From Candidatus Parcubacteria bacterium (GTDB lineage Bacteria; Patescibacteriota; Minisyncoccia; Phycocordibacterales; GCA-2747955): 24,000 bases of DNA. Position numbers and translations under genes: made by a program. Location of the stretch: positions 1 through 24,000 of the forward strand of contig JALVSO010000054.1 of the NCBI GenBank assembly GCA_027024305.1, given 5' to 3'. Shown here piece by piece: positions 2,104 to 23,799 of this stretch (positions within the stretch are counted from its first letter, which is position 1; each line of letters opens with the position of its first letter). The notes beneath the pieces are model-generated. The model saw only the letters and a list, made by a program, of their open reading frames with translations, was not told where the DNA came from and did not search any database.

Positions 2104-2230
2104 CAAAAAGCTCCCCACTATGCCGAGGACAGAATAGCTTGCCTTTTTTGTTGTATATTGTATAATTATAATGGTTTTTGAGTATTTGGCTCAAGTTGTT
2201 TTCTAATTTTTTAAAAGAGAGGATAGCGAG

Positions 2231-2761
2231 ATGAAGAAAGAACTGAATCTGAAATTTTTGAATCGCGAAATGGTTGAAAAATGTGCCGAGAGAGTCTTAG
2301 AGGTTACTATCTACAATGAGGATTGGAGGGAGAAGTACGGAAATGGTCCGGTTCAAGGTTATCTGGTTGTTATCGTCCCTAAAATGGTAGTGGATGAAAA
2401 ATTGGAATGGCCTGAATCATATAGCCTTAAACCCCATGCAATTTTTCAGAAAAGTCTGGGTGATAGAAAAAAATGGCCCCGTAATTTTGAGGAAATTGCC
2501 AAGAGTAGAGCGCTCCAGCTTTGGCAGGGGCGTAGTCCAGTCGGAGATGAATATTCCACACCATACCTTCTCTTTGAAGGAGATGAACCCCACAACAGAG
2601 GATTTGCCGATGGAACTGGGCTATTGGTGGTTTCTTTCTCCGGGTATTCGTATGATGGAGATCTAGATGTTTCTAGATTTCTGAATGAGGTTTTGATTGG
2701 TGAATCCTGTCAAAATTTTTGTGAAAGATTTCTTAAAAATCACGATAAGGATTTTGTCTGA
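2231..2761 (+). CDS. Hypothetical protein, 176 aa; weak pattern resemblance to the GlcG/HbpS (DUF336) family
   Basis: Uninterrupted ORF with an SD-like AGAGAGGA about 8 nt upstream of the ATG. It has four TGG Trp codons and no internal TGA. It is the only ORF in the window whose apparent stop is TGA (2759-2761). The DUF336 idea rests only on an ...AKSRA...GG-x-ADGTGLLVVSFSG...D... pattern and is tentative. Confidence 0.55.
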   Translation: MKKELNLKFLNREMVEKCAERVLEVTIYNEDWREKYGNGPVQGYLVVIVPKMVVDEKLEWPESYSLKPHAIFQKSLGDRKKWPRNFEEIAKSRALQLWQGRSPVGDEYSTPYLLFEGDEPHNRGFADGTGLLVVSFSGYSYDGDLDVSRFLNEVLIGESCQNFCERFLKNHDKDFV

Positions 2762-2779
2762 GTCTCCTTTTTTCAACCC

Positions 2780-2807
2780 AAAACCGGGCACAATGCCCGG
2801 TTTTTTT
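2780..2807 (+). terminator. Strong rho-independent terminator
   Basis: Perfect 11-bp stem AAAACCGGGCA (2780-2790) / TGCCCGGTTTT (2794-2804), loop CAA, T7 run. Confidence 0.8.
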
Positions 2808-2808
2808 A

Positions 2809-2817
2809 TGTTAAAAT
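2809..2817 (+). promoter_or_regulatory. Extended -10 element TGTTAAAAT for recJ (leaderless-type spacing)
   Basis: TGnTAAAAT ends 7 nt before the recJ ATG at 2825. Same architecture as at 4666, 6149, 15349 and 19468. Confidence 0.45.
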
Positions 2818-2824
2818 TAGTTCT

Positions 2825-4606
2825 ATGATTGACGCTTATTTGGCTAAAAACTATTTTGTTCATCAGAGTCTTGACGAAAAAGAAATTGAGAAAAGATACG
2901 GGAAAGATTTTAATCGGCTGTTGGCCAATTTATTGTATGCCCGGGGAATTAAAAATAAAAAAGAGGCTGAAAAGTTTTTAAATCCTCGCTGGGAAGAAAA
3001 TCATAATCCTTTTCTTTTTAATGATATGGAGAAGGCCGTGGAAAGAATTTTAAAGGCCGTTAAAAATCAAGAGAAAATTTTAATCTATTCTGACTATGAT
3101 ACCGACGGCATTCCCGGCGGAGCCCTTTTACATAATTTTTTTAAAAAAATAGGCTATGAGAATTTTGCCAACTACATTCCCAACCGAAATCGGGACGGCT
3201 ACGGACTGACCGAGAAGGCGGCCGAGAAAATTGTCCGGGGCGAAATTTTTAAAAATTCTCTTTTCGGGGAAGAGTTGGAAGGGGAGAATTTCAATCCGGA
3301 TTTGGTTATCACCATTGATTGCGGTATCAGTGATATTGAGGCTTCCAAGATTTTAAAAAAGGAAAAAGTGGATTTGATTGTAACCGACCACCATCTGCCG
3401 GGAGAAAAACTGCCGGAGGCTCTGGCCATTTTAAATCATAAGGTTACGGGGGAAAAATATCCCGATAAAAATCTTTGCGGAGCCGGAGTGATTTTTAAAC
3501 TGGTTCAGGCCTTGGTGGAGAGAATTAAAAAAGAAAAAGAATTTGAAATTAAAGAGGGCTGGGAAAAATGACTTCTGGATCTGGTGGCCATATCCACTGT
3601 CTGCGATATGGTGCCCTTGTTGGGAGAAAATAGAATTTTTGTGAAATACGGCCAAATTGTTTTTAAAAATACCCATCGGGAGGGCTTAAACCGTTTGATG
3701 GAAAAGGCTCGTTTAGATAAGAAAAATATTTCCGCCGGGGATTTGGGCTTTATGGTCGGCCCTCGTTTAAATGCCGCTTCCCGCTTGGATGATCCGGTGG
3801 TGGCTTTCAAAACCTTGGCCGAGGAAGGAGAAGAAGCCGTTTTTTCAGCCGAGGAATTGGAGAGGTTGAATAATCGGCGGAAATATCTAACGGCCAAAAT
3901 AATGAAGGAGGTTTATAAAAAACTTTCCCAAAGGGATTTGAAAGAGGTTATTGTTATCGGCAATAGGGATTGACCTCTGGGGGTTTTGGGTCTCATCGCC
4001 GGTAAGGTTGCCGATAAATACCAACGGCCAACTTTTGTCTGATCACAAGCGGAGGGGGAAGAGAAAATTTTAAAAGGCTCCTGTCGCTCCGGAGGAAAAT
4101 ATGATATTCATTCTTTGATGACTGAGGCTTCCGAAGAATTTTTGGGTTTTGGTGGCCATAAAGCTTCCGGAGGTTTTGAAATAAAAGAAGAGAAAATTCA
4201 TTTTTTGGAAGAAAAATTGACGGAGGCTTTGGAGAATACAAAATTGGCCGAAAAGGAAAAAATTATCATTGATGCGGAAATAGGTTTGGACGATGTAACC
4301 TTGGAAAATTATCATGAAATAGAAAAACTGGAACCCTACGGCATGGCCAATCAGAAACCCCATTTCTTTTTTCGGGGAGTGGAAGTTTTTTCGGTAAATT
4401 TTTTCGGCAAGGAGAAAAGCCATCTGGAATTGATTTTTAAAAATTCCCGCAATTTTTCCATTAAAGCCATCGCCTTTTCTTTCCACGACCTTTTGGGAGA
4501 TATCAATTTTTCAGCCGGGGATAGAATAAATTTGGTGGCTTCTTTTGAATTAAATCGCTGAAACGGAGCGGAAAGCTTGAGATTAAAAATTGAGGATATT
4601 TTTTAA
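2825..4606 (+). CDS. recJ: Single-stranded-DNA-specific exonuclease RecJ (593 aa with UGA=Trp)
   Basis: Three same-frame track fragments (2825-3571, 3584-3973, 4115-4561) join through TGA codons at 3569, 3971, 4040 and 4559. DHH motifs are present: YSDYDTDGIPGG, ITIDCG, VTDHH, GGHKASGG. The TGA at 3971 gives GNRDW-PLGVLGLIAGKV, matching the RecJ W-x-GV-GI-A pattern. True stop is TAA at 4604-4606. Confidence 0.9.
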
Positions 4607-9961: not shown

Positions 9962-9993
9962 ATTTAAAAAGTTCTTCGTGGTAAAATGAAAGC

Positions 9994-10860
9994 ATGGAGA
10001 ATTTTTTTTGATTGGATGTCTTTTTTATCTTTTTTTTGGGGGCTATTTTTGGATCTTTTTTGAATGTTTTGGCAGCCGAGCTGGAGCCTCTGGTTTTTTT
10101 TAATAGAGAAGAAAGAATAAAAAAGAAAATCAAATCATTTTGGAAAAGAATAAATCGCAGATCCCGCTGCCCCCACTGCGCCCATAAACTGAGAGAAGGG
10201 GAGTTGGTTCCGATTTTTTCGTGACTTTTTCTCGGGGGAAGGTGTAAAAAATGCGGAAAAAAGATATCCCCCGGATATTTTTTAGTGGAATTTTTTAGCG
10301 GACTGACTTTTTTGGGTTTTGCCTATCATTTTTACAGTTTAAAGGGCTCAGAGCTCAATCTTTTTAATTGATGGGAGTTTTATTTTTTTGTTCCCATAAT
10401 TTCTTCTTTAATCCTTATCTTTCTTTTTGATTTGAAACACAAGATAATACCTGATTTAATTATTCTTCCAACCATTATTTATTCTCTATTCTATATTGCT
10501 TTTGATTTTAATTCTTTGACTTTTGATTTTTCCCATTGACTTGATGATATTTGAAGGTCTATTCTTTTTGCCCTGCCATTTTTTGCTCTCTGGTTGGTGT
10601 CAAAAGGCAGGGCCATGGGCTTTGCCGATTGAAAGTTGATCTTTCTCCTATCGCTTTTTCTGGACGGCACCATGGAGAATTTACTCTTCGTTTTCGGAGC
10701 TTTTTGGTTGGGGGCTTTCTATGCTATTCCGGCTTTAATTTTTGGAAGGTCAAAATTAAAAACAGAGGTCCCCTTTGGTCCTTTTATTATCCTATCGTTT
10801 TTCATAGTCTACTTTTTCCACCTTTCCTACGGTGATTTTATAAATATCTTTATGGTATAA
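9994..10860 (+). CDS. pilD: Prepilin peptidase / N-methyltransferase family A24 (288 aa)
   Basis: Same-frame fragments join through six TGA codons (10009, 10222, 10369, 10537, 10552, 10630). Motifs: GSFLNV, CPHCAHKL...PIFSW-LFLGGRCKKCGKKIS (Cys-rich box with S-W), FDLKHKIIPD and GFADWKL, which are the two catalytic Asp regions. Polytopic hydrophobic profile. Confidence 0.85.
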
Positions 10861-10881
10861 TCCAGAGAAGGCCTATTGTCT

Positions 10882-11562
10882 ATGAAAAGAAAAATTCTGC
10901 AAAAAAAGAATAATTTGGAAGAGGGGTTTTCTCTGATGGAATTATTGGTGGTTATTGCCATTCTGATAATTCTTCTTTCCATTTCCCTTTTTAACTATGA
11001 TAAATTCGGTAAAGATGTGGAGCTGGAAAATGCCGTCTATTCCATGGCTCTGGCTATTAGAGAGGCTCAGGTCTATGGGGTGAATAAGGCCCTGAAAGAC
11101 GTTGGTGGCAGTAATGTGGAGGACTACTTCGGAGGCGATTATGGCTACGGAGTTTATTTTAATAGAGCGGGGGCATCTTCCGGACCGTCTAATTCCCAGA
11201 AATTTGTTCTCTATATTGATAATGATAGTGGGGCTAATGCCAATAATAAAATTTTTGACAGCAGTTCCGATTGTTCGGGCTCGGCCAATGATGAATGTTA
11301 CAGTCAGATTTTTCTAACCAAGGGAAACTATATAAAAGAGATAAAATTAAAGGGGGGTTCTGATTGAAGTTCTGCAGTAACCGTTGGCCGAGCCAATATT
11401 TATTTTAAAAGGCCAAACCCCGATGCCACCATTCTCAACGATGATGGTAGCCAAATTTACTCGGCCATTCAAATTAAAATCAATTCTCCGGCTGATGTTT
11501 ACAGCCGTTGTGTCAGAGCCGGTGCTTCAGGAGATATAACCATAAGTAGAACATGCTATTAA
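10882..11562 (+). CDS. Type IV pilin / pseudopilin-like protein (226 aa)
   Basis: Class III signal peptide ...EEG|FSLMELLVVIAILIILL with Glu at +5. TGA at 11365-11367 read as Trp extends the track ORF to TAA at 11560-11562. SD-like GAAGG lies upstream. Confidence 0.8.
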
Positions 11563-12131
11563 GTAAAAAGATAAAAAAGAATAGAGCCTTTACTCTGGTG
11601 GAAATGCTGGTTTCTCTAACTCTTTTTTCCGTTGTGACAACCATTGCCTTTACGGCTCTCTATAGGATTATGGAGGCCAACAATAAATCAAAAACCATCA
11701 AATTGGTGGTCAATAATTTAAATGTGGCCATGGAATCAATGACCCGCGAAATCAGGGTTGGCTATAATTACTGCGCCAACCCACCCGCTTCCACCTGTGA
11801 TAGCAATCTTGGTTCCACCAGGATATATTTTAAAACCAAGGATGATTGTGATGGCCAATATGTTTTTTACTCTTCGGAAGAAACCATAAAGAAAAAGGTG
11901 GGGGTAAAGGATTCTGCCGGGAATTGCCAATACCCTTCAACCGAAACGGCCATTTTGGGTGATGATGTTAAAGTAAAAAGGGCCAAATTTTATATTCATG
12001 GTTCGGACGATCACAGTGATTACAATCAACCGAGAGTTTTAATTATCCTGAGAGGACAGGCTACGGATATTAATATGGATACAATTTTTGATATTCAAAC
12101 CACGGTTTCTCAGAGGAATCCTGATCAATAA
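11553..12131 (+). CDS. Minor pilin / pseudopilin-like protein (192 aa)
   Basis: N-terminus KKNRA|FTLVEMLVSLTLFSVV (prepilin-type motif). Overlaps the previous gene by 10 nt. Confidence 0.75.
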   Translation: MLLSKKIKKNRAFTLVEMLVSLTLFSVVTTIAFTALYRIMEANNKSKTIKLVVNNLNVAMESMTREIRVGYNYCANPPASTCDSNLGSTRIYFKTKDDCDGQYVFYSSEETIKKKVGVKDSAGNCQYPSTETAILGDDVKVKRAKFYIHGSDDHSDYNQPRVLIILRGQATDINMDTIFDIQTTVSQRNPDQ

Positions 12132-12141
12132 TAAGAAATCT

Positions 12142-12720
12142 ATGAAAATTTTTCAAAAGAATAAAAAAATAAAAAAAGCGGAGGCTTTTACCTTGGTGGA
12201 GGCTTTAATTTCCATAACCATTCTAATGATTTCAGTGGCCGCTCCTTTAAATTTGGCTTCCCAGGGCCTTATGGCGGCCAATATTGCTCAAAGGCAAATA
12301 GTGGCTTTTTACTTGGCTCAAGATGTTAATGAATGAATTATCAATCAGAAAATGTCTAATCATTTGAAGTCTTCAAATGATATGCTGGATGGCCTAGATG
12401 ACTGTATTGTTACTGCCGGTGGTAATGAAAAGGGATGCGCTATCAATACTTTAGAAAACAGTCCGAGCAGCGCGATAACTTCCTGTGCCGCCTCCGGATG
12501 TCCAAGCAAGGGAAAACTCTATAAAAATAGCAACGGTTTTTATGCTCCGAATCTTTCAGCTGCTGACTTTTCCGGCTATACTCGATATAGTGAAATTAGG
12601 AGAATAGGAGTAGACGGGGGGGTTGTGACGGAGGCCCGAATTAAGACGGTGGTTAAATGAACTTCCGCTCAGGGAGTGGAGCAGAGCTATGAATTGGTTA
12701 ATAATATATCTAAGTGATAA
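12142..12720 (+). CDS. Minor pilin / pseudopilin-like protein (192 aa)
   Basis: N-terminus KKAEA|FTLVEALISITILMISV. Track ORFs 12088-12336 and 12352-12660 share a frame and join via TGA at 12334 and 12658. The gene ends ...ISK-TGA-TAA at 12715-12720. Confidence 0.75.
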
Positions 12721-12731
12721 TATTAAAAAGT

Positions 12732-13256
12732 ATGAATTATTTAAATAATAATAGAAAAGAAAAAGGCTTCGTTATTTTAATCGCCATCGTTATTTCGGGA
12801 CTTTTGGTTTCCATTGGAATGTTTATTGCCAATGTGGCCTACAAAGAACTTTTGCTTTCAACTTCGGCCAAGGCATCCCAAAAAGCTTTTTTTGTGGCCG
12901 ATTCGGTTATGGAGTGTGCCATGAGGCATGATATTAGGAAGGCTGGTTTTTGGGTCACAGATTCAGATAGCCAGAGCCGAGATTTTATATGTAATAATAT
13001 GACCTTTCAACCCCACGCAACAAGTACCGGCGGCTCTGACTGATATACTTCCATATATTATATTTCTTTTGCCGAGGATGGTGACGGGGACGGAGAAATC
13101 AGTTCGGCTGAGATGGATGCCGACCCCAATGCCGGTTATGCCAAATTAATTGTTCAGAAAACCAATAGTGGAGTTGACACCGTTATGAAAGCCTATGGTC
13201 ATGACAGGTATAAAGGAAAAGGTATCGTAGAGAGGGCTATACAGGTAAAGTACTAG
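12732..13256 (+). CDS. PilX-like minor pilin / pilus-associated protein (174 aa)
   Basis: N-terminus RKEKGFVILIAIVISGLLVSIGMFI, a hydrophobic prepilin-like helix lacking Glu5 as in PilX-type proteins. TGA at 13041 read as Trp extends the ORF to TAG at 13254-13256. Confidence 0.6.
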
Positions 13257-13268
13257 TTTTTATTTTAA

Positions 13269-15296
<2,028 letters not shown>

Positions 15297-17247: not shown

Positions 17248-17291
17248 ATCAACAAAAAATCCCCGGACAGGATTTTTTGTGATTTTTTTTG

Positions 17292-17365
17292 TGGACCTGA
17301 CAGGACTCGAACCTGCCACCCCCTGCTTGCAAAGCAGGTGCTCTAGCCAGATGAGCTACAGGCCC
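17292..17365 (-). tRNA. tRNA-Ala (anticodon UGC)
   Basis: The reverse complement reads GGGCCTGTAGCTCATCTGGCTAGAGCACCTGCTTTGCAAGCAGGGGGTGGCAGGTTCGAGTCCTGTCAGGTCCA. It folds as a cloverleaf with anticodon loop TTTGCAA (TGC), the G3:U70 Ala identity pair, T-loop TTCGAGT and discriminator A. CCA is not encoded. Confidence 0.9.
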
Positions 17366-17565: not shown

Positions 17566-18534
17566 ATGACAATAATCAAACAGAAGAAACAGAGAGTCGC
17601 TATTTTTATAGATGCTCAAAATCTTTATCATTCGGCCAAATCAGCCTACGGAGCCAATGTCAATTTTAAAAATATTTTAGAAGATACCTTGGCCGGTCGA
17701 GAACTGGTTCGGGCCATCGCCTATGTTATCAAAACGGAAAGCGGAGAAGAAAAAAATTTCTTTGATGCTTTGGAAAAATCCGGCATAGAAACCAAGTCAA
17801 AAGATTTGCAGGTTTTTTTGGGCGGGGCTAAAAAAGGTGATTGGGATGTGGGTATGACCGTTGATGCCATTAGGATGGCTCCCAAGGTTGATGCGGTGGT
17901 TATCGTTTCCGGCGATGGTGATTTCATTCCTCTGGTTGAATATTTGAAATTCAGCTCCGGTTGCCAGGTGGAGGCTGCCACATTTAGATCATCGGCTTCT
18001 TCGGGGCTTGTGGAAGTGGTTGATGATTTTTTTGATCTTTCTGAAAATCTTGGCCGCTATTTAATGAAGGGTAGTAGGGTCGGACGTTTTAGATACAGTG
18101 GTAGGACTAGATTGTTATCGGAAAAAGGCATTTCCATAAAAGACCCTAAGCCGCCGGAAATTGGAGGCGAGATGGAAGAGGAGAGCCCCGAAATGATTGC
18201 CGAAAGGGTGGCGGCTAAAAGAGGTCTGTCTTCCGGTATCAAAAGGCCTTTGGTTAAAAAAAGAAATAGTAAGGCCACCGAGGTTGAAATAACCAGGATT
18301 AAAAAAGAAGATTTTGTTGAAAAAGAGATAGAGCAAGCTTTGGTTGAAGACAAAAAAGGCCCTGAACAGCAGAGTGAAAAGAAAAAGGAGAGTAAAATTA
18401 CTTCGGAAAAAAAGAAAAGGGCTCCGGCTAAAAAAGAGAAGAAGGATTCTAAAGAAAAAATAAAGTTGGCCGTTAAAAAGGCCGTAGTTAAAAAGGAAAA
18501 AAAAGAGGTTCCCAAAAAAAAGAAAGCAAAGTAA
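17566..18534 (+). CDS. NYN/LabA-like (DUF88) domain protein with a long Lys/Glu-rich C-terminal tail (322 aa)
   Basis: VAIFIDAQNLY...KKGDWDVGMTVDA...VVIVSGDGDFIPLV fits the NYN/LabA Asp-rich nuclease-fold pattern. The C-terminal ~150 aa is low-complexity and K/E-rich. Ends in TAA. Confidence 0.75.
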   Translation: MTIIKQKKQRVAIFIDAQNLYHSAKSAYGANVNFKNILEDTLAGRELVRAIAYVIKTESGEEKNFFDALEKSGIETKSKDLQVFLGGAKKGDWDVGMTVDAIRMAPKVDAVVIVSGDGDFIPLVEYLKFSSGCQVEAATFRSSASSGLVEVVDDFFDLSENLGRYLMKGSRVGRFRYSGRTRLLSEKGISIKDPKPPEIGGEMEEESPEMIAERVAAKRGLSSGIKRPLVKKRNSKATEVEITRIKKEDFVEKEIEQALVEDKKGPEQQSEKKKESKITSEKKKRAPAKKEKKDSKEKIKLAVKKAVVKKEKKEVPKKKKAK

Positions 18535-18900: not shown

Positions 18901-18933
18901 AAAAACAAAAAACCCTTCAATTATGAAGGGTTT
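18901..18933 (-). terminator. Rho-independent terminator of the minus-strand gene
   Basis: AAACCCTTCA / TGAAGGGTTT, 10-bp stem with ATTA loop. On the minus strand it is followed by TTTTTTGTTTTTTT. Confidence 0.75.
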
Positions 18934-19351
18934 AAAGATATTTTTCTTCCAATTTTTTTCTTTTTTCCTTTATAATAATCATAAGGGCCAGAGACTCCAC
19001 CGGGTTGAGTTTATCGGCTTCGGATATGCTATAACCTATGCCTTTTTTTCCACCCATGGTCATCAGTTCGAATCGGATGAGATGCTTTACCCCTTTCGGG
19101 CTAATCCAGGCCCCCCGGAGAATTGTTTTGCTCTTTTCGCCCGGAATGGGCCCCAGCCAGCTCATATTCATCTCCGAGGCCATTTTTTTAGCGGCACTGA
19201 GAATCACTTTTCTCTTTAGAGCTTTTTGGCAGGTCTCAAGTTCTTTAAGGTTTAAGTTTTTTAAAAACTTTATCTTGATTTCGTCATTATCATCGAGGTA
19301 TATTTCGGCCAGTCTTTCTCCCGATAATTTCACCGTTCCTAAAATTTTCAT
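18932..19351 (-). CDS. Hypothetical protein (139 aa), no family recognised
   Basis: Clean ORF with SD-like GGAG 11 nt upstream of the ATG, a TAA stop embedded in a strong terminator, and no TGA codons. It is the only minus-strand gene within about 18 kb. Confidence 0.6.
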   Translation of the reverse strand: MKILGTVKLSGERLAEIYLDDNDEIKIKFLKNLNLKELETCQKALKRKVILSAAKKMASEMNMSWLGPIPGEKSKTILRGAWISPKGVKHLIRFELMTMGGKKGIGYSISEADKLNPVESLALMIIIKEKRKKLEEKYL

Positions 19352-19482: not shown

Positions 19483-22400
19483 ATGAATAAAGATGAAAAA
19501 GAAAGTCGGGATGGAATGCTGTCCTGCGATGCCAAGAATGATTTTCTTGGCTCTGAAAAAAGTGAAGAAGTGGAGGAATTTCCTTTAAGTAAAAATGCTC
19601 AAGAGGAAAGGGAGATTTTGAATTTTTGAAATGAGAACAATATTTTTAAAAAATCCATAGAAAATAGAAATGATGCTCCGGAATTTATTTTCTACGATGG
19701 CCCTCCTTTTGCTACGGGGTTGCCTCACTATGGCCATCTTTTGGCCGGGACCATTAAGGATGTCATTCCTCGCTATAAAACCATGCGTGGCTATCGGGTG
19801 CCCAGAAGTTGGGGTTGAGATTGTCATGGTTTACCCGTGGAGAATATGATTGAAAAAGAGTTGGGTCTTAATTCTCGCAAGGAGATTGAGGAATACGGCA
19901 TAGATAAATTCAATAAAAAATGCCGAGACTCGGTTTTGAGGTATGATAGAGAGTGAAAGAAAATAGTTCCCAGGACCGGCCGTTGGGTTGATATGGAACA
20001 TCCCTATAAAACCATGGACTCCACCTACACCGAATCTCTTTGGTGGGCTTTTTCAGAATTGAATAAAAAAGGTTTGGTTTCTAGGGATTTTAAACCTATG
20101 CATATTTGCCCTCGCTGTGAAACCACTCTTTCAAATAACGAGGTTTCTGAAGGTTATAAAGATATAAAAGATTTATCGGTTATTGCTGAATTTAGATTGC
20201 TTGATGAGCCGGAAACCTTTGTTTTGGCCTGAACCACCACTCCCTGGACTTTGCCCGGCAATGTGGCTTTGGCCGTGGGGGAAGATATTGACTATGTCAA
20301 AATAGAAAAGGAAAATCAGAATGGTGAGGGTAAGGTTAGATTTATTCTGGCCAAGGAACTTTTGGAGAAGATTTTTCCAAAAGAGGAAAATGACTATGAA
20401 ATAGTGGAGGAATTTAAAGGTGAAAAATTGATTGGTAAAAGCTATGAACCGCTTTTTGATTACTATGCCAAGAAAGATGATTTAAAAAATAAAGAAAACG
20501 GTTGGAAAATTTACGGGGCTGATTTTGTGACCACCGATTCCGGAACCGGCATTGTTCACATCGCTCCGGCCTTTGGAGAAGATGATTTGCTTTTGGGTCA
20601 GAAATATAATTTACCCTGGGTTCAGCATGTGAACATAGATGGAAAATTTAAAGATGAGGTAAGCGATTTTGCCGGCATGGCCGTGAGAAAAAAAGAATTT
20701 CATGAAGAGGCTGATATTGAAATTATTAAATGATTGGCGGAAAAAGGAAAATTATTTTCCAAGGAAAAATATGAACACTCCTATCCCCACTGTTGGCGCT
20801 GTGATACTCCGCTTTTAAATTATGCCACTTCTTCCTGGTTTATCAATTCACCGAAAATAAAGAATGAATTGGTGGCTGAAAATAAAAAGATTTCCTGGGT
20901 GCCGGATCATATCGGAACCAAGCGTTTTCATAATTGGTTGGAGAACACCAAAGATTGAGCCGTTTCTCGCTCTCGCTATTGGGGAGCTCCTTTACCGATT
21001 TGAGAAAATAAAGAAAGTGGAGACTATGTTGTTTTAGGTTCTTTGGAAGAGTTGAAAGAAAAAACCAGATCCGATAATCAATTTATTTTTCTGCGCCATG
21101 GAGAGTCGGAGTCCAATGTGGAGAATATGATTTCTTCGGTACCGGGTCAATATGGGGATAGGCTAACCCAAAAAGGACGAGAGCAGGTGCGAAAAGTAAA
21201 AGATGAATTGAAAGGTGTTGATTTAATTTTCGTTTCGCCTTTCAATAGAACCAAAGAAACGGCCGAGATTGTTGCCGATGGACGGGAGGTCATAGAAGAT
21301 GAAAGATTGAAGGAAATTTTTGCCGGAGATAAGAATGGAAAAAGCTATGATAAATACAGCACCAGTGAATTTGAAGAAAAACCGGAAGATGTTCGTCGAA
21401 GGGTTATGGATTTTATCTTTGAAATAGATAAAAAATATAGGGGAAAGAAAATTTTAATTGTTTCCCATGGCCTGGTTGGTTCAATTTTGATGAGTGTTGA
21501 GGACAGAGATGAGAATGTTCAAAATGCCGTGGTTTATAATTTTGATTTTGCTCCATTCCCCCACGACGATAATTATCAATTGGATTTTCACAGACCCTAT
21601 ATTGACCAAATAACCTTTGAAGAGAATGGTAAAAAATACGAATTTGTTAAAGAGGTTTTTGATTGTTGGTTTGAGTCCGGATCCATGCCTTTTGCTTCAA
21701 GGCATTATCCTTTTGAAAATAAAGAAGTTTTTGACCCGTCAAAACATAAGGGCTTTCCGGCTGACTTTATTGCCGAGGGTCAGGATCAGACCCGTGGTTG
21801 ATTTAATACCATGTTGATTTTGTCAACGGCTCTCTTCGGTGAGACTTCCTATCGAAATGTGGTGGTTAACGGAATTGTTTTGGCCGAGGATGGAAAGAAG
21901 ATGGCTAAATCCTTAAAAAACTATCCCGATGTTAACTTTATTCTAAATAATTATACGGCCGATGCCATGAGAATGTATATGCTTTCTTCACCGGCCGTGC
22001 GAGCGGGAGACTTGGCTTTTTCAGAGAGAGGGGTTGATGAGATAAACAAGAAAGTTATTATGAAAGTAAAGAATGTCCTAACTTTCTACGAGCTTTACAA
22101 AAACGAATTGACCGAGGAAGTCAAAGCCAGGGATTCAAAAAACATTTTGGATCAATGAATTTTGGAAAGGACCAAAAAATTACTTTCCACGGTTAGCCAA
22201 GCCTTGGATAATTATGAGCTGGATGAGGCCACCAAGCCTTTTGTGGACTATGTGGATGATTTTTCAACTTGATATATCAGAAGGTCTCGGGACAGGTTTA
22301 AGGGGATTGATTTGGAGGATAAAAATTATGCCATCGTGACAACCAGAACCGTTTTAAGAAACCTGGCTAAAATTATTGCTCCTTTTGCTCCATTTTTGGC

Positions 22401-23067
22401 TGATTATCTTTGGTTAAGGTTGAGAAGGGAGGGAGATCAGGAATCGGTCCATTTGGAAAAATGGCCGGAATTGAAGGAGGGCTTGCTGGAAAGATTTTTG
22501 GGCAAGAAAAATGATATTTTGGATGGAATGGCTTTGGTTCGGGAGATTGTTTCTTTGGCCATGGAAGCCAGGGTTTCGGCTGGCTTGAAGGTTAGACAGC
22601 CTTTGGCATCCATGTTGGTTATCGGTTCGGTGGAAGATTTGGATGAGGAATACAAAGAAATTATCGCCGATGAATTGAATATCAAGAAGGTTTACCTTGA
22701 AAAGGATTTGGAAAAAATTGATAGGGAGAAGTATGATAGTTTTAATTTTGAGGAGATTGACAGGGGTGAAAACCGGAAAATAATGGTTTTGTTGGATAAA
22801 AATTTAACTCCGGAGCTGAAAAAGGAAGGTGATTTTCGGGAGTTTTTGCGCCAGATTCAGATTATGAGAAAGAAAGCCGGATTGCAGGTGGATGATATGG
22901 TGGAAATTAAAGTGGATTTGCAGGGGGCCGATAGAGACTTCATTGAGGATAATTTGGACGAACTTCAGAGAGTGGCCGGAGTGAAAAAAGTCAACTATGG
23001 TGAAATCGACGGAGAGGACGAGGTAAAAGTTAATGATAAAAAAATAAAGCTGGTTCTAATTGATTAG
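19483..23067 (+). CDS. ileS: Isoleucine--tRNA ligase, type 2 / eukaryote-like (1194 aa) with a nested histidine-phosphatase domain
   Basis: Seven track fragments plus untracked pieces are all in frame 1 and join through 10 TGA codons (19627, 19816, 19954, 20230, 20731, 20956, 21001, 21799, 22156, 22270). Motifs: [12 protein letters not shown] (HIGH), [65 protein letters not shown] (KMSKS), [10 protein letters not shown]. Ends in TAG. Confidence 0.95.
21064..21582 (+). other. Histidine phosphatase (PGAM/CobC/SixA-like, branch 1) domain inserted in-frame in IleRS
   Basis: [12 protein letters not shown] (RHG catalytic motif), [19 protein letters not shown] and [10 protein letters not shown] (second catalytic His). 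The segment lies between the IleRS motifs ...[25 protein letters not shown] and [10 protein letters not shown], which in type 2 IleRS are, from memory, only about 10-15 residues apart. Confidence 0.75.
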
Positions 23068-23126: not shown

Positions 23127-23759
23127 CTAATGCGCCATGGTCATAAAATAAACTTTTTTGGCACCGGCTTTCTTTAACACCTTTTTGGCTTCTTTGAGAG
23201 TGGCCCCCGTAGTTGTAACATCATCAAAAATTATAATATTTTTACCCTTGATTTTTTCAGCTTTCCTTACGACAAAGGAGTTCTTGACGTTAACTAACCT
23301 CTCTTTTCTGCTTTTGGTTTTTGATTGGGCTTTGGTGTGTCTTTTTTTAACCAAAACTCCTTTTTCTCAGGAGATAAAGTTTTTTCCTCCCATTTTCATA
23401 AAATTTTCTATGATTAAATCATTTTGGTTATAACCTCTCTTAACTTTCCTTCAGAAACTAATGGGTATGGTTATGATAATGGGGTCATTGAAGTTCTCGG
23501 AGAATCTTAGAAAATCCAAAAGGTCATTTATATTTTCATAGATAATTTCCGAAAAGACTTTGGCTGACCCCGTTTGCCCACGAAACTTTAGCCTTTTTAA
23601 TTCTCTGGAAACCGATGGATTTCTGTAGGGTAAGAAGGTAATTCTTTTTTTTCCGGGAAAGATAAAATTTCTATTGGAAAGAAGTTTTTTGATTTTTACT
23701 CCGTCTTCGTTGTCTTCTCAAAAAAAGCCGATAAGTTTATAAAAGTAATTTCAAAACAT
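23127..23759 (-). CDS. comFC: ComF-family phosphoribosyltransferase-like protein (210 aa)
   Basis: The track ORF 23127-23354 (…NIIIFDDVTTTGATLKEA…, the PRTase motif) extends upstream through four in-frame TGA codons to the ATG at 23759-23757. This adds ...PISFW-RKVKRGYNQNDLI..., the ComFC R-G-[FY]-N-Q motif. Ends in TAG. Confidence 0.8.
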
Positions 23760-23799
23760 TTTTTATCTGTTATAATATGGACATAATTAAAATTTTTAA

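What the first reader, a model, noticed from the sequence alone, without database searches (positions are those of the whole stretch)
21064..21582. Complete histidine-phosphatase domain nested inside the catalytic core of IleRS
Seen: a roughly 170-residue segment sits in the same ORF as the surrounding IleRS sequence, with no stop or frame change on either side. It lies after [17 protein letters not shown]...GSLEELKEK and before [10 protein letters not shown]...[12 protein letters not shown]. The segment carries the hallmark residues of the branch-1 histidine phosphatase superfamily in the right order:
- LRHGESESN
- [10 protein letters not shown]
- an acidic E in RLKEIFAGD
- IVSHG
It therefore looks catalytically competent rather than a decayed remnant. 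Established: aaRSs acquire appended or inserted domains such as editing CP1 and Zn modules, but I know of no phosphatase nested in IleRS. Inference: the insertion may couple aminoacylation to a phospho-ester hydrolysis. Candidates are a nucleotide or alarmone by-product such as Ap4A-type compounds, a 2'/3'-phosphorylated tRNA end, or a phosphorylated inhibitor. It may instead be a selfish domain insertion tolerated in a surface loop.
Basis: partly seen in the sequence, partly recalled or inferred. Interest (0 to 1): 0.8.

Follow-up and report, generated by a model that had tools for sequence, protein, structure and literature searches.

The report
Phosphatase domain nested inside isoleucyl-tRNA synthetase
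The isoleucyl-tRNA synthetase gene in this window really does carry an intact histidine-phosphatase enzyme domain in one of its surface loops, and this undescribed two-enzyme design is shared by hundreds of tiny "candidate phyla radiation" bacteria, whose relatives keep the same phosphatase as a separate gene directly in front of the synthetase gene.

Summary
Confirmed. Window 21064-21582 encodes a 173-aa branch-1 histidine phosphatase (HP) domain (Pfam His_Phos_1, E=1e-27). It replaces a ~5-7-residue linker in the CP3 subdomain of an otherwise intact type-2/eukaryote-like IleRS (19483-23067).

The gene is one ORF only if its 10 in-frame TGA codons are read as Trp. Nine of the ten sit on invariant-Trp columns.

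It is not an assembly chimera. All 120 best full-length homologues carry the insert. So do 77 of the 80 best loci from species-representative genomes, in one frame. All are Patescibacteria (Parcubacteria/Paceibacteria).

The catalytic residues R538, H539, N545, R589, E611 and H662 are invariant in 120/120 homologues.

New findings:
- A sister lineage has an insertion-free orthologous IleRS and encodes the same phosphatase as a ~190-aa gene just upstream, in a pyrH-argS-HP-ileS operon.
- Rarer lineages carry motif-intact HP copies at two further IleRS sites, sometimes two copies per protein. The host is always IleRS.

Best reading: an ancient, selected host-guest fusion of two active enzymes. 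The phosphatase substrate is unknown, and coupling to aminoacylation is plausible but unproven.

No paper in the searched library describes it. I rate it a new variant of a known kind (aaRS with an accessory domain). Interest 0.62.

The parts
19483..23067 (+). ileS: 1194-aa IleRS with the nested phosphatase. The ATG at 19483 is the first possible start, so the true start is uncertain. The stop is TAG. The gene is one ORF only if TGA is read as Trp.
   Evidence: translation, TGA list; TIGR00392 874 bits, cut-off 621; PDB IleRS matches, E=1e-218.
19627..22272 (+). Ten in-frame TGA codons read as Trp, at 19627, 19816, 19954, 20230, 20731, 20956, 21001, 21799, 22156 and 22270.
   Evidence: One search gives the positions. 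One search shows 9/10 on columns that are W in 120/120 homologues; the tenth is on an aromatic/variable column. One search shows no gene in the window ends in TGA.
19726..19737 (+). HIGH signature of the synthetic site (HYGH, aa 82-85).
20230..20568 (+). CP1 editing-domain motifs: WTTTPWT (aa 250-256) and GTGIVHIAP (aa 354-362).
   Evidence: The assignment of these motifs to the IleRS editing site is from established knowledge.
20980..21063 (+). N-terminal arm of the CP3 subdomain ([28 protein letters not shown]). The CxxC zinc-knuckle cysteines found in 70/120 homologues are replaced here by N509 and S512.
   Evidence: CP3 definition from PMC7191050.
21064..21582 (+). Nested histidine phosphatase (His_Phos_1) domain, aa 528-700.
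   Evidence: E=1.2e-27. (AF2 pLDDT 94.2, pTM 0.91). (Foldseek: PhoE 1h2e, E=1e-11, 32% identity).
21094..21102 (+). R538-H539-G540: RHG motif. H539 is the predicted phospho-accepting nucleophile.
   Evidence: R and H are invariant in 120/120 homologues and G in 118/120. The catalytic role is inferred from the family's known mechanism.
21247..21249 (+). R589 (SPFNR motif), the second phosphate-binding arginine.
   Evidence: 120/120 invariant.
21313..21315 (+). E611 (DERLKE motif), the predicted general acid.
   Evidence: 120/120 invariant.
21466..21468 (+). H662 (IVSH motif), the second catalytic histidine.
   Evidence: 120/120 invariant.
21559..21582 (+). Return linker found only in the nested forms: P-H-[ND]-x-N-Y-x-L (PHDDNYQL here). 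It is conserved in nested forms and absent from standalone phosphatases.
   Evidence: P693 110/120, H694 118/120.
21583..21681 (+). C-terminal arm of CP3 (DFHRPYIDQ...) running into the DCWFESG motif of the second Rossmann half.
21898..21912 (+). KMSKS-type loop (KMAKS, aa 806-810).
22150..23055 (+). Anticodon-binding domain (Pfam Anticodon_1, aa 890-1041) and the type-2 IleRS C-terminal domain (DUF5915, aa 1093-1191).

Best explanation
The segment is a catalytically intact phosphomonoesterase of the PhoE/CobC type (histidine phosphatase superfamily, branch 1). It is nested in the CP3 connective-peptide loop of the organism's working type-2/eukaryote-like IleRS. It is the clade-wide IleRS architecture of a large Parcubacteria/Paceibacteria (Minisyncoccia) lineage.

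Shown:
- The domain, its boundaries and its intact motifs.
- Its presence in hundreds of species.
- A single origin at the base of a monophyletic IleRS clade.
- A sister lineage in which an insertion-free orthologous IleRS is preceded, 1-7 nt upstream or with one or two genes between, by a standalone ~190-aa orthologue of the phosphatase, in a pyrH-argS-HP-ileS-x-recO array.
- Rarer lineages with motif-intact phosphatase copies at two further IleRS sites, sometimes two per protein.

Inferred:
- The phosphatase gene next to ileS was relocated into CP3 once.
- The polypeptide has two independent active sites. IleRS charges tRNA-Ile as usual. The guest hydrolyses a phosphomonoester through a phospho-His539 intermediate, with R538, R589 and H662 holding the phosphate and E611 as proton donor.
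- The linkage persists as neighbour, then nested, then duplicated or relocated, and always within IleRS. From this I infer that physical association with IleRS is selected, meaning the phosphatase works on something bound, made or needed at IleRS/tRNA-Ile. It is not merely a passenger.

The substrate is not identified.
For: - Domain identity: Pfam E=1e-27; AF2 pLDDT 94; Foldseek probability 1.0 to PhoE, HP-type phosphoserine phosphatase and CobC.
- Host integrity: TIGR00392 passes its cut-off. 231/233 conserved IleRS columns are kept. A full-length model of the 57%-identical homologue P0133 has pLDDT 87.8 and pTM 0.79, and superposes on type-2 IleRS structures with TMt 0.78-0.86.
- Conservation: all 120 top full-length hits carry PF00300. 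At least 481 loci in species-representative genomes encode a relative of the insert, and 77 of the best 80 hold flank-HP-flank in one frame without stops. 130 representatives of 50%-identity clusters match at E<=1e-30. Catalytic residues are invariant in 120/120.
- Single origin: the insert-bearing IleRSs are monophyletic in 30/30 bootstraps and sister to the insertion-free L084/L092 IleRS. 65 standalone and 61 nested phosphatases form a clean bipartition.
- Gene neighbourhood: all standalone-HP contexts examined put HP right after argS. ileS lies downstream wherever the contig reaches it. That holds for L082, L084/85, L087, L091, L092 and L093, but L088-90 end too early to show it. Gaps are -1 to 7 nt in L084, L087 and L092.
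- Recurrence inside IleRS: HP occurs at site A (CP3), site B (after DxWFDSG) and site C (before the anticodon-binding domain), in combinations A+A, A+B, A+C and B+C. Every copy keeps the RH[GA] motif, and nearly all also show an SPxxR-type motif. Every copy scores higher on the nested-type HMM than on the standalone-type HMM.
- Host specificity: all 134 long representatives are IleRS-like at 35-55% identity.
Against: - The phosphatase works as a free protein in the sister lineage. It does so even beside a different (GXHH-type) IleRS that is only 35% identical. Covalent linkage and a specific IleRS surface are therefore not required.
- The conserved operon mixes unrelated housekeeping genes (UMP kinase, ArgRS, RecO), so adjacency may be historical and not functional. 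Neighbourhood examples also come from related genomes and are not independent.
- CP3 is peripheral and structurally variable. The papers read do not report it contacting tRNA.
- The nearest characterised relatives act on small metabolites.
- No model coordinates were available, so the distance and orientation of H539 relative to the synthetic site, the editing site or the tRNA are unknown.
- No activity data exist.
- The multi-site variants come from a library without contigs or names, so I could not check their assemblies.
Confidence: 0.5

Rival explanations
1. Passenger enzyme. The phosphatase is an independent housekeeping enzyme whose gene happened to lie next to ileS and was captured into a permissive surface loop by a local rearrangement. 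One candidate is the phosphoglycerate mutase reported as 'missing' from several Parcubacteria clades; another is a general sugar- or nucleotide-phosphatase. Both activities are needed, so the fusion is locked in, but the two do not interact.
For: - The standalone form works beside two different IleRS types.
- The operon neighbours are functionally heterogeneous.
- The best NCBIfam hit is the archaeal 2,3-diphosphoglycerate-dependent phosphoglycerate mutase (dPGM) model: 77 bits for the insert and 114 bits for the standalone form.
- Structural neighbours are metabolite phosphatases and mutases.
- Jaffe et al. 2020 note that PGM is absent from several shallow Parcubacteria clades, 'possibly ... 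too divergent' to be recovered (PMC7304191).
- CP3 is a variable, peripheral subdomain.
Against: - All dPGM, CobC, PspA and SixA models score far below their cut-offs.
- By my reading, the sequence after E611 and after H662 follows the PhoE/CobC pattern. It lacks the dPGM-specific segment and the HGN motif.
- A mere passenger would not be expected to be duplicated and relocated to two further sites of the same host gene with RHG motifs kept in both copies, while never appearing in another host among the best 150 matches.
- A return linker specific to the nested form (PHNxNYEL) is conserved.
Confidence: 0.3
2. Mechanistically coupled third activity. The phosphatase acts on the tRNA or on an adenylate-like ligand. 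It might remove a 3'- or 2',3'-cyclic phosphate from damaged tRNA-Ile ends before recharging. It might instead destroy a phosphorylated or phosphoramidate IleRS inhibitor.
For: - The phosphatase is persistently and exclusively associated with IleRS.
- One IleRS lineage (P0448) carries the phosphatase at site A and a P-loop kinase-like domain (AAA_18/AAA_33) at site B. Kinase plus phosphatase is the pairing used by RNA end-healing enzymes. PDB hits are weak and include Pnkp1.
- The window's copy has a trimmed cap (173 aa). By analogy with SixA-type members that act on macromolecules, this predicts a more open active site. That is inference from established knowledge of the family.
Against: - To my knowledge, no histidine-phosphatase-superfamily member is known to act on RNA ends.
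- The kinase-like domain occurs in a single cluster representative, and its family assignment is weak (E about 0.02-0.06 to several unrelated kinases).
- Geometry is unknown.
- It is unclear why only tRNA-Ile would need such a service.
Confidence: 0.15
3. Non-catalytic structural or regulatory module, or a selfish/mobile domain tolerated in a loop.
For: - Insertion hot spots in these IleRSs also hold GNAT, a P-loop domain and even an IS200-like Y1 transposase.
- Reduced genomes under strong drift can fix neutral insertions (general knowledge).
Against: - All catalytic residues are invariant over 120 homologues, although the insert diverges to ~40% identity.
- The insert's GC equals that of its flanks.
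- The origin is single and inheritance is vertical.
- No other host protein is seen among the best 150 matches.
Confidence: 0.04
4. Artefact: a chimeric assembly or a broken pseudogene.
For: Public gene calls split the gene into five ORFs, because table 11 was used.
Against: - The same junctions occur in one frame in 77 of 80 independent genomes and in all 120 top homologues.
- The TGAs sit on invariant Trp columns.
- The closest relative has 22 in-frame TGAs, and JGI's own code-4 translation reads each as Trp.
Confidence: 0.01

Closest known systems
PhoE/YhfR broad-specificity phosphatase of Geobacillus stearothermophilus (PDB 1h2e, 1ebb), and the related HP-type phosphoserine phosphatases (4ij5, 6m1x) and CobC alpha-ribazole phosphatases (6nru, 6e4b)
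   Same: Same alpha/beta fold (Foldseek probability 1.0, TMq 0.71-0.77, 24-33% identity). Same RHG...R...E...H catalytic set and the 'G-x-W/F-E/D-G-K' and 'GE[ST]' motifs.
   Different: Those are free ~200-aa enzymes. This one is nested in another enzyme, has a trimmed cap and C-terminal tail (173 aa), and reaches none of the curated equivalog cut-offs. Its substrate is unknown.
Type-2 / eukaryote-like IleRS (S. cerevisiae 8wnd/7d5c, C. albicans 6ldk, P. megaterium IleRS2 8c8u, T. thermophilus 1ile)
   Same: Same scaffold and motifs. phmmer E is 1e-199 to 1e-218. The full-length model of a homologue superposes with TMt 0.78-0.86. The C-terminal DUF5915 domain is typical of this type.
   Different: In those enzymes CP3 is a small beta-beta-alpha-alpha or Zn-knuckle subdomain (PMC7191050). 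Here a ~5-7-residue linker inside CP3 is replaced by a 173-aa enzyme, and the Zn-knuckle cysteines are lost.
NCBIfam NF040702 'isoleucine--tRNA ligase, N-acetyltransferase domain-containing' (ileS_w_GNAT)
   Same: It is a curated precedent for a catalytic domain nested inside a bacterial IleRS. Some Patescibacteria IleRSs carry both a GNAT and the phosphatase (P0151, P0417).
   Different: The guest is a different domain (GNAT, not a histidine phosphatase) at a different site (CP1 region or site B). The window protein scores 347 bits against a cut-off of 1999.
Rv2228c-type bifunctional RNase H / acid phosphatase (NCBIfam NF005567)
   Same: A CobC-like histidine phosphatase is fused to a nucleic-acid enzyme. 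The insert matches the model's phosphatase half at E=1e-14.
   Different: That is an end-to-end fusion with RNase HI, not a nested insertion. The insert scores 54 bits against a cut-off of 326.
Standalone ~190-aa Patescibacteria phosphatases (Staskawiczbacteria and relatives) encoded between argS and ileS
   Same: They are 40-48% identical to the insert with the same motifs. They are the probable source, or at least the sister, of the nested domain.
   Different: They are separate genes. They lack the PHNxNYEL return linker and form their own clade.

Membership tests
Histidine phosphatase superfamily, branch 1 (Pfam PF00300) | Profile match above the curated gathering score | tested here: met
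   97.3 bits against a cut-off of 21.7, E=1.2e-27.
Histidine phosphatase superfamily, branch 1 (Pfam PF00300) | RHG motif with nucleophilic His, second Arg, acidic proton donor and second His, in that order | tested here: met
   R538-H539-G540, R589, E611 and H662. R538, H539, R589, E611 and H662 are invariant in 120/120 homologues; G540 in 118/120.
Histidine phosphatase superfamily, branch 1 (Pfam PF00300) | Alpha/beta phosphoglycerate-mutase-like fold | tested here: met
   AF2 pLDDT 94.2. Foldseek probability 1.0 to 1h2e, 6m1x and 4ij5.
Histidine phosphatase superfamily, branch 1 (Pfam PF00300) | Phosphoryl-transfer activity via a phospho-histidine intermediate | not testable with these tools
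   Needs an enzyme assay with an H539A control.
Isoleucine--tRNA ligase (NCBIfam TIGR00392 equivalog) | Whole-protein score above the curated cut-off | tested here: met
   874.4 bits against 621.4.
Isoleucine--tRNA ligase (NCBIfam TIGR00392 equivalog) | Class I signatures HIGH and KMSKS, CP1 editing motifs, anticodon-binding domain | tested here: met
   HYGH, KMAKS, WTTTPWT and GTGIVHIAP are present. Anticodon_1 and DUF5915 are present. 231/233 conserved columns are kept.
Isoleucine--tRNA ligase (NCBIfam TIGR00392 equivalog) | It is the organism's functional (sole) IleRS | not testable with these tools
   There is no second ileS in the 31.6 kb covered by the window plus L001. The whole genome was not available.
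Cofactor-dependent phosphoglycerate mutase (NCBIfam NF038349 dPGM_arch; TIGR01258 pgm_1) | Score above the curated cut-off | tested here: not met
   77 bits against 225, and 25 bits against 81.7. The standalone orthologue scores 114 against 225.
Alpha-ribazole phosphatase CobC (TIGR03162) / phosphoserine phosphatase PspA (NF045917) / SixA (TIGR00249) | Score above the curated cut-off | tested here: not met
   65.3 against 162.9; 52.7 against 350; 27.4 against 74.5.
IleRS with nested GNAT (NCBIfam NF040702) | Score above the cut-off and presence of a GNAT domain | tested here: not met
   346.8 bits against 1999. No GNAT hit in the window protein.
Mupirocin-resistance IleRS MupA/MupB (NF000257/NF000258) | Score above the curated cut-off | tested here: not met
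   733 and 769 bits against 1900.
Patescibacteria IleRS with HP nested in CP3 (uncurated architecture defined here) | His_Phos_1 between the WGxPxPxW and DxWFxSG motifs in one frame with IleRS | tested here: met
   Window. Homologues: 120/120 top hits and 77/80 genome loci. The window protein falls inside the monophyletic insert-bearing clade.

The most novel reading that the evidence does not exclude
The nested phosphatase is a third catalytic activity of IleRS that acts on its own ligands. It might heal phosphorylated 3' ends of tRNA-Ile, in some lineages together with the P-loop kinase-like domain found nested beside it. It might instead hydrolyse a phosphorylated or phosphoramidate adenylate-mimic inhibitor. 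That would be an aaRS with built-in repair or immunity chemistry, a role unknown for the histidine phosphatase superfamily.
Probability: 0.15. Interest if true: 0.85.

Novelty: new variant of a known kind. Interest (0 to 1): 0.62.

Why it matters
Aminoacyl-tRNA synthetases are known to gain editing, zinc and appended domains. A second, apparently active enzyme of an unrelated superfamily nested in the connective peptide of a bacterial IleRS is unusual. This one is conserved across hundreds of species of a major uncultivated lineage and is duplicated to other sites of the same synthetase. As far as the searched literature shows, it is undescribed.

The system comes with a natural comparison set: an orthologous IleRS without the insert plus a free phosphatase gene next to it. 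This makes two questions directly testable:
- How is a neighbouring gene captured as a nested domain?
- What does physical coupling add?

If the phosphatase acts on tRNA or on adenylate-like ligands, it would be a new kind of synthetase-embedded chemistry. If it is the 'missing' phosphoglycerate mutase or a general phosphatase, it fills a gap in metabolic reconstructions of Parcubacteria. It would also warn that HMM-based pathway calls miss enzymes hidden inside other genes.

There is a practical lesson too. The public gene calls for this contig used the wrong genetic code and shattered the gene.

Tried and rejected
I used the 57%-identical homologue P0133, which has the same short insert.
- No coordinates are returned. 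I therefore could not measure where the phosphatase pocket points relative to the synthetic site, the editing site or the tRNA.
- The first profile (A1) was too diverse for the genome scan. A six-sequence profile worked.
- Six literature searches for the IleRS-phosphatase architecture, covering Pfam names, CPR aaRS insertions and phosphoglycerate mutase, found nothing relevant. One search gave the CP3 definitions.
- The variable genes between the standalone phosphatase and ileS gave no equivalog-level assignment and no clear functional clue. These were a 338-aa PALP protein with weak threonine-synthase similarity, a Nudix hydrolase, a HydE-like radical SAM protein and a 113-aa unknown.
- The P-loop domain nested in P0448 could not be assigned beyond AAA_18/AAA_33. 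Its PDB hits to APS kinase, shikimate kinase and Pnkp1 are all weak.
- dPGM, CobC, PspA and SixA membership were all considered and rejected on curated cut-offs.
- Code 25 (UGA=Gly), the code known for Gracilibacteria/Absconditabacteria, was rejected because the TGAs align with Trp.
- Recent horizontal origin of the insert was rejected: GC is 0.385 for the insert, 0.392 upstream and 0.400 downstream.
- The trees are neighbour-joining only. The direction of the event (insertion or excision) rests on parsimony, since insertion-free IleRS is the universal state.
Full report
**1. What is in the window**

With the bacterial code, the IleRS-like reading frame between about 19.5 and 23.1 kb is broken into several ORFs.
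- All ten interruptions are TGA, and the frame ends in TAG.
- Read with TGA as Trp, it gives one protein of 1194 aa, 19483-23067.
- Nine of the ten TGAs fall on alignment columns that are Trp in 120 of 120 homologues. The tenth falls on an aromatic/variable column.
- No gene in the window ends in TGA, and most long genes contain in-frame TGA.
- The closest relative (P0121, 60% identical, locus L094) has 22 in-frame TGAs in its ileS. JGI's own code-4 translation reads each as Trp.

The organism therefore uses UGA=Trp, not the UGA=Gly code of Gracilibacteria and relatives.

**2. The observation**

- They match Pfam His_Phos_1 at E=1.2e-27 (97 bits, cut-off 21.7).
- The whole protein passes the NCBIfam IleRS equivalog model (874 bits against 621), matched in two pieces.
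- Against solved IleRS structures the match is split exactly at the insert. Query 40-529 aligns to yeast IleRS 12-493, and query 700-1079 aligns to 498-890.
- Against the closest insertion-free orthologue found later (L084), window aa 39-526 aligns to 6-490 and aa 701-1192 aligns to 498-951.
- In L084 the sequence ELEK-VSGIKVT-DLHKD stands where the window has ELKEK-[173 aa]-DFHRP.

The insert replaces a linker of about five to seven residues. Per the domain definitions for Candida albicans IleRS (CP3 = residues 473-534; PMC7191050) and the alignment to 6ldk, the site lies inside CP3. CP3 is a small, structurally variable connective-peptide subdomain. In Thermus thermophilus IleRS it carries a zinc-binding motif. 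Most homologues keep cysteines on both sides of the insert (C at columns 509, 512 and 715 in 70/120). The window protein has lost them.

**3. Is it real and intact?**
- All 120 best full-length matches (50-61% identity, 1143-1325 aa) combine IleRS domains with PF00300. Where named, they come from Campbell-, Pace-, Zambryski-bacteria, Paceibacterota, Minisyncoccota or 'Patescibacteria group'.
- A scan of one genome per species with a profile of the insert found at least 481 loci. The best 80 are all Patescibacteria: Campbell-, Taylor-, Nomura-, Yonath-, Vogel-, Lloyd-, Kaiserbacteria, RAAC4_OD1_1 and others.
- 77 of those 80 have IleRS flank, phosphatase and IleRS flank in one frame without any stop.
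- A full HMMER pass over 1.84 billion cluster representatives gave 130 representatives at E<=1e-30. Most were matched in one stretch spanning both junctions.
- An assembly chimera is therefore excluded.
- Within the insert, N532, R538, H539, N545, G565, S585, R589, E611, E632, R640 and H662 are invariant in 120/120 homologues, although the insert as a whole is only about 40% identical between lineages.
- The window protein keeps 17/17 of the >=95%-conserved insert columns. It keeps 231/233 of the IleRS columns; the two changes are F to Y and L to M. HYGH, KMAKS, WTTTPWT and GTGIVHIAP are all present.
- Alone, the insert is predicted with pLDDT 94.2 and pTM 0.91. It is closest to PhoE/YhfR (1h2e, 32% identity), HP-type phosphoserine phosphatases and CobC.
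- A full-length model of the 57%-identical homologue P0133, which has the same short insert, has pLDDT 87.8 and pTM 0.79 with the phosphatase region at 83-95. It superposes on type-2 IleRS structures with TMt 0.78-0.86.
- The window's copy is one of the shortest: 173 aa against a median of 204. Deletions lie in the cap region and after H662.
- Insert GC equals that of its flanks.

**4. Where it came from**

Among weaker hits were free ~190-aa phosphatases that are 40-48% identical to the insert. A search with one of them found more than 120 clusters, named Staskawiczbacteria, Parcubacteria or Patescibacteria.

In every context I could retrieve, the gene lies directly after argS. Wherever the contig reaches far enough, it lies just before ileS, in a conserved array: archaeal-type pyrH, argS, HP, ileS, one unknown gene, recO. 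Sometimes a radical-SAM gene sits before HP, or a 113-aa ORF, a PALP gene or a Nudix gene sits between HP and ileS.
- The loci are L082, L084/L085, L087, L088-90 (these contigs end before ileS could be seen), L091, L092 and L093.
- Gaps are -1 to 7 nt in three of the loci.
- The IleRS in these loci has no insert. In L084 and L092 it is the same type as the window's (PPFATG-PHYGH, 54-57% identical in the N-terminal half). In L082, L091 and L093 it has been replaced at the same position by a GXHH-motif type that is only 35% identical.

In a neighbour-joining tree of 904 IleRS columns rooted on the GXHH type, the 61 sampled insert-bearing IleRSs are monophyletic in 30/30 bootstraps. They are sister to L084 and L092. 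In the phosphatase tree, the 65 standalone and 61 nested sequences separate cleanly.

The simplest history is one event: the phosphatase gene lying next to ileS was moved into CP3 in the ancestor of the insert-bearing clade. This is inference. An excision in the other direction fits the trees equally well. It is less parsimonious only because insertion-free IleRS is the universal state.

**5. Variants that bear on function**

The cluster representatives include IleRSs with two phosphatase domains, or with the domain elsewhere. Mapped on the insertion-free L084 IleRS, there are three sites:
- Site A: CP3, reference residues 490-498. This is the window's site.
- Site B: reference residues 537-543, just after the DxWFDSG motif.
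- Site C: reference residues 657-660, just before the anticodon-binding domain.

The combinations seen are:

| Combination | Proteins |
|---|---|
| A+A in tandem | P0456, P0488 |
| A+B | P0423 |
| A+C | P0422, P0413 |
| B+C without A | P0489, P0451 |

Every copy keeps the RH[GA] motif, and nearly all also show an SPxxR-type motif. Every copy scores higher on the nested-type HMM than on the standalone-type HMM. Copies at the same site in different proteins are each other's best partners. These are therefore duplications and relocations within ileS, not fresh captures.

Other guests occur at the same hot spots:
- a GNAT domain (P0151 in the CP1 region, P0417 at site B);
- a P-loop kinase-like AAA_18/AAA_33 domain (P0448 at site B, next to the phosphatase at A);
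- an IS200-like Y1 transposase in CP1 (P0417).

These are shown. All 134 long representatives are IleRS-like at 35-55% identity, so the host is always IleRS. The top 80 species-representative loci all have a single copy, so these variants are rarer.

**6. How it most likely works**

Shown: this is a two-enzyme polypeptide with both sets of catalytic motifs intact and under long-term purifying selection.

Inferred from the family's established mechanism:
- H539 attacks a phosphomonoester and forms a phospho-histidine intermediate.
- R538, R589 and H662 hold the phosphate.
- E611 protonates the leaving group.
- IleRS chemistry proceeds as in other type-2 enzymes.

The substrate is unknown. No curated subfamily model is reached. 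dPGM_arch scores 77 against 225, CobC 65 against 163, PspA 53 against 350 and SixA 27 against 74.5. By my reading, the motifs after E611 and H662 follow the PhoE/CobC pattern and not the mutase pattern.

Several observations suggest that proximity to IleRS is selected:
- the exclusive and repeated association with IleRS, first as neighbour, then nested, then duplicated at three sites;
- a conserved return linker, PHNxNYEL, that only the nested forms have.

I put about 0.5 on that reading.

The main rival, at about 0.3, is a passenger housekeeping enzyme. It might be the phosphoglycerate mutase that Jaffe et al. found absent from several Parcubacteria clades (PMC7304191). This reading is favoured by three points:
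- The free form works beside two different IleRS types.
- The operon is a mix of housekeeping genes.
- The structural neighbours act on small-molecule metabolites.

A mechanistically coupled role on tRNA ends or adenylate-like inhibitors is possible, at about 0.15. Its only specific hint is the single phosphatase-plus-kinase variant.

**7. Comparison with what is known, and novelty**

aaRSs with accessory domains are well known, and NCBIfam even curates an IleRS with a nested GNAT. I found no paper on an IleRS with a histidine phosphatase. Public records call these proteins 'class I tRNA ligase family protein', 'isoleucyl-tRNA synthetase' or, for fragments, 'broad specificity phosphatase PhoE'.

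The sequences are therefore public, but the architecture, its neighbour-gene counterpart and its multi-site variants appear undescribed. I rate it a new variant of a known kind. The window's copy is an ordinary, slightly trimmed member of that clade.

The UGA=Trp code matches a May 2026 preprint that reports the first UGA-to-Trp reassignments in Patescibacteriota class Minisyncoccia (bioRxiv 10.64898/2026.05.24.727570). The public gene calls for this contig used table 11 and cut ileS into five ORFs.

**8. Limits**
- There are no coordinates from the models, so no geometry.
- There is no whole genome, so a second ileS cannot be excluded beyond the 31.6 kb covered.
- The trees are neighbour-joining only.
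- The neighbourhood examples come from related genomes.
- The variant proteins come from a library without contigs or names.
- There is no experimental activity data.

Noticed in passing
whole window (e.g. TGA at 19627-22270 in ileS; 2207-4606, 9985-10860, 13269-15296, 23127-23762): The genome uses UGA=Trp (code 4), not UGA=Gly. No gene ends in TGA, most long genes hold in-frame TGA, and 9/10 ileS TGAs sit on invariant Trp columns. The nearest relative (L094, GC 31%) has 22 in-frame TGAs in its ileS. This matches the first report of UGA-to-Trp in Patescibacteriota class Minisyncoccia (gTranslate preprint, May 2026). No tRNA-Trp(UCA) lies in the window; the only tRNA is tRNA-Ala(TGC) at 17291-17365 on the minus strand.
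   Followed up: partly
window 19483-23067; L001 (ENA ERZ23491057 scaffold_5334): Public gene calls for this contig used table 11 and split ileS into five ORFs. One of them (249 aa) looks like a small phosphatase with IleRS ends. Similar fragments in other records are named 'broad specificity phosphatase PhoE'.
   Followed up: yes
window 20980-21063 and 21583-21663: The window IleRS has lost the CP3 zinc-knuckle cysteines (N509, S512, N715) that 70/120 homologues keep on either side of the insert.
   Followed up: partly
related proteins P0422, P0413, P0423, P0451, P0456, P0488, P0489: Some Patescibacteria IleRSs carry two phosphatase domains, or carry the domain at other sites: after DxWFDSG, or before the anticodon-binding domain. 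Two lineages have no copy in CP3. All copies keep the RHG-type motif.
   Followed up: partly
related proteins P0448, P0151, P0417: Other guests are nested in these IleRSs. P0448 has a P-loop kinase-like AAA_18/AAA_33 domain beside the phosphatase. P0151 and P0417 have GNAT domains. P0417 has an IS200-like Y1 transposase domain inside the CP1 region.
   Followed up: partly
loci L082, L091, L093 versus L084, L092: In the lineages with a free phosphatase gene, the ileS at the same chromosomal position is of two types. One is the PHYGH type, like the window's. The other is a GXHH-motif type (GVHH) only 35% identical. This is an in-place replacement of ileS while the upstream phosphatase stays. From memory, the GXHH motif recalls the mupirocin hyper-resistant IleRS2 class; I did not check this.
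   Followed up: partly
window 2207-4606 (+): The RecJ-like protein (DHH, DHHA1 and RecJ_OB domains) has an N-terminal extension of about 280 aa with no Pfam hit.
   Followed up: no
window 9985-13256 (+) and beyond 23.8 kb (L001): A type IV pilus cluster is present: a prepilin peptidase (Pfam-confirmed), followed by several ORFs that I read by eye as pilin-like because of their N-terminal methylation-type motifs. PilM follows ileS, which is typical of episymbiotic CPR bacteria.
   Followed up: no
window 17566-18534 (+) and 18932-19351 (-): There is a NYN-domain protein with a long lysine-rich tail. A 139-aa ORF without family hits lies on the opposite strand directly upstream of ileS. argS is not next to ileS here, unlike in the sister lineage.
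   Followed up: no
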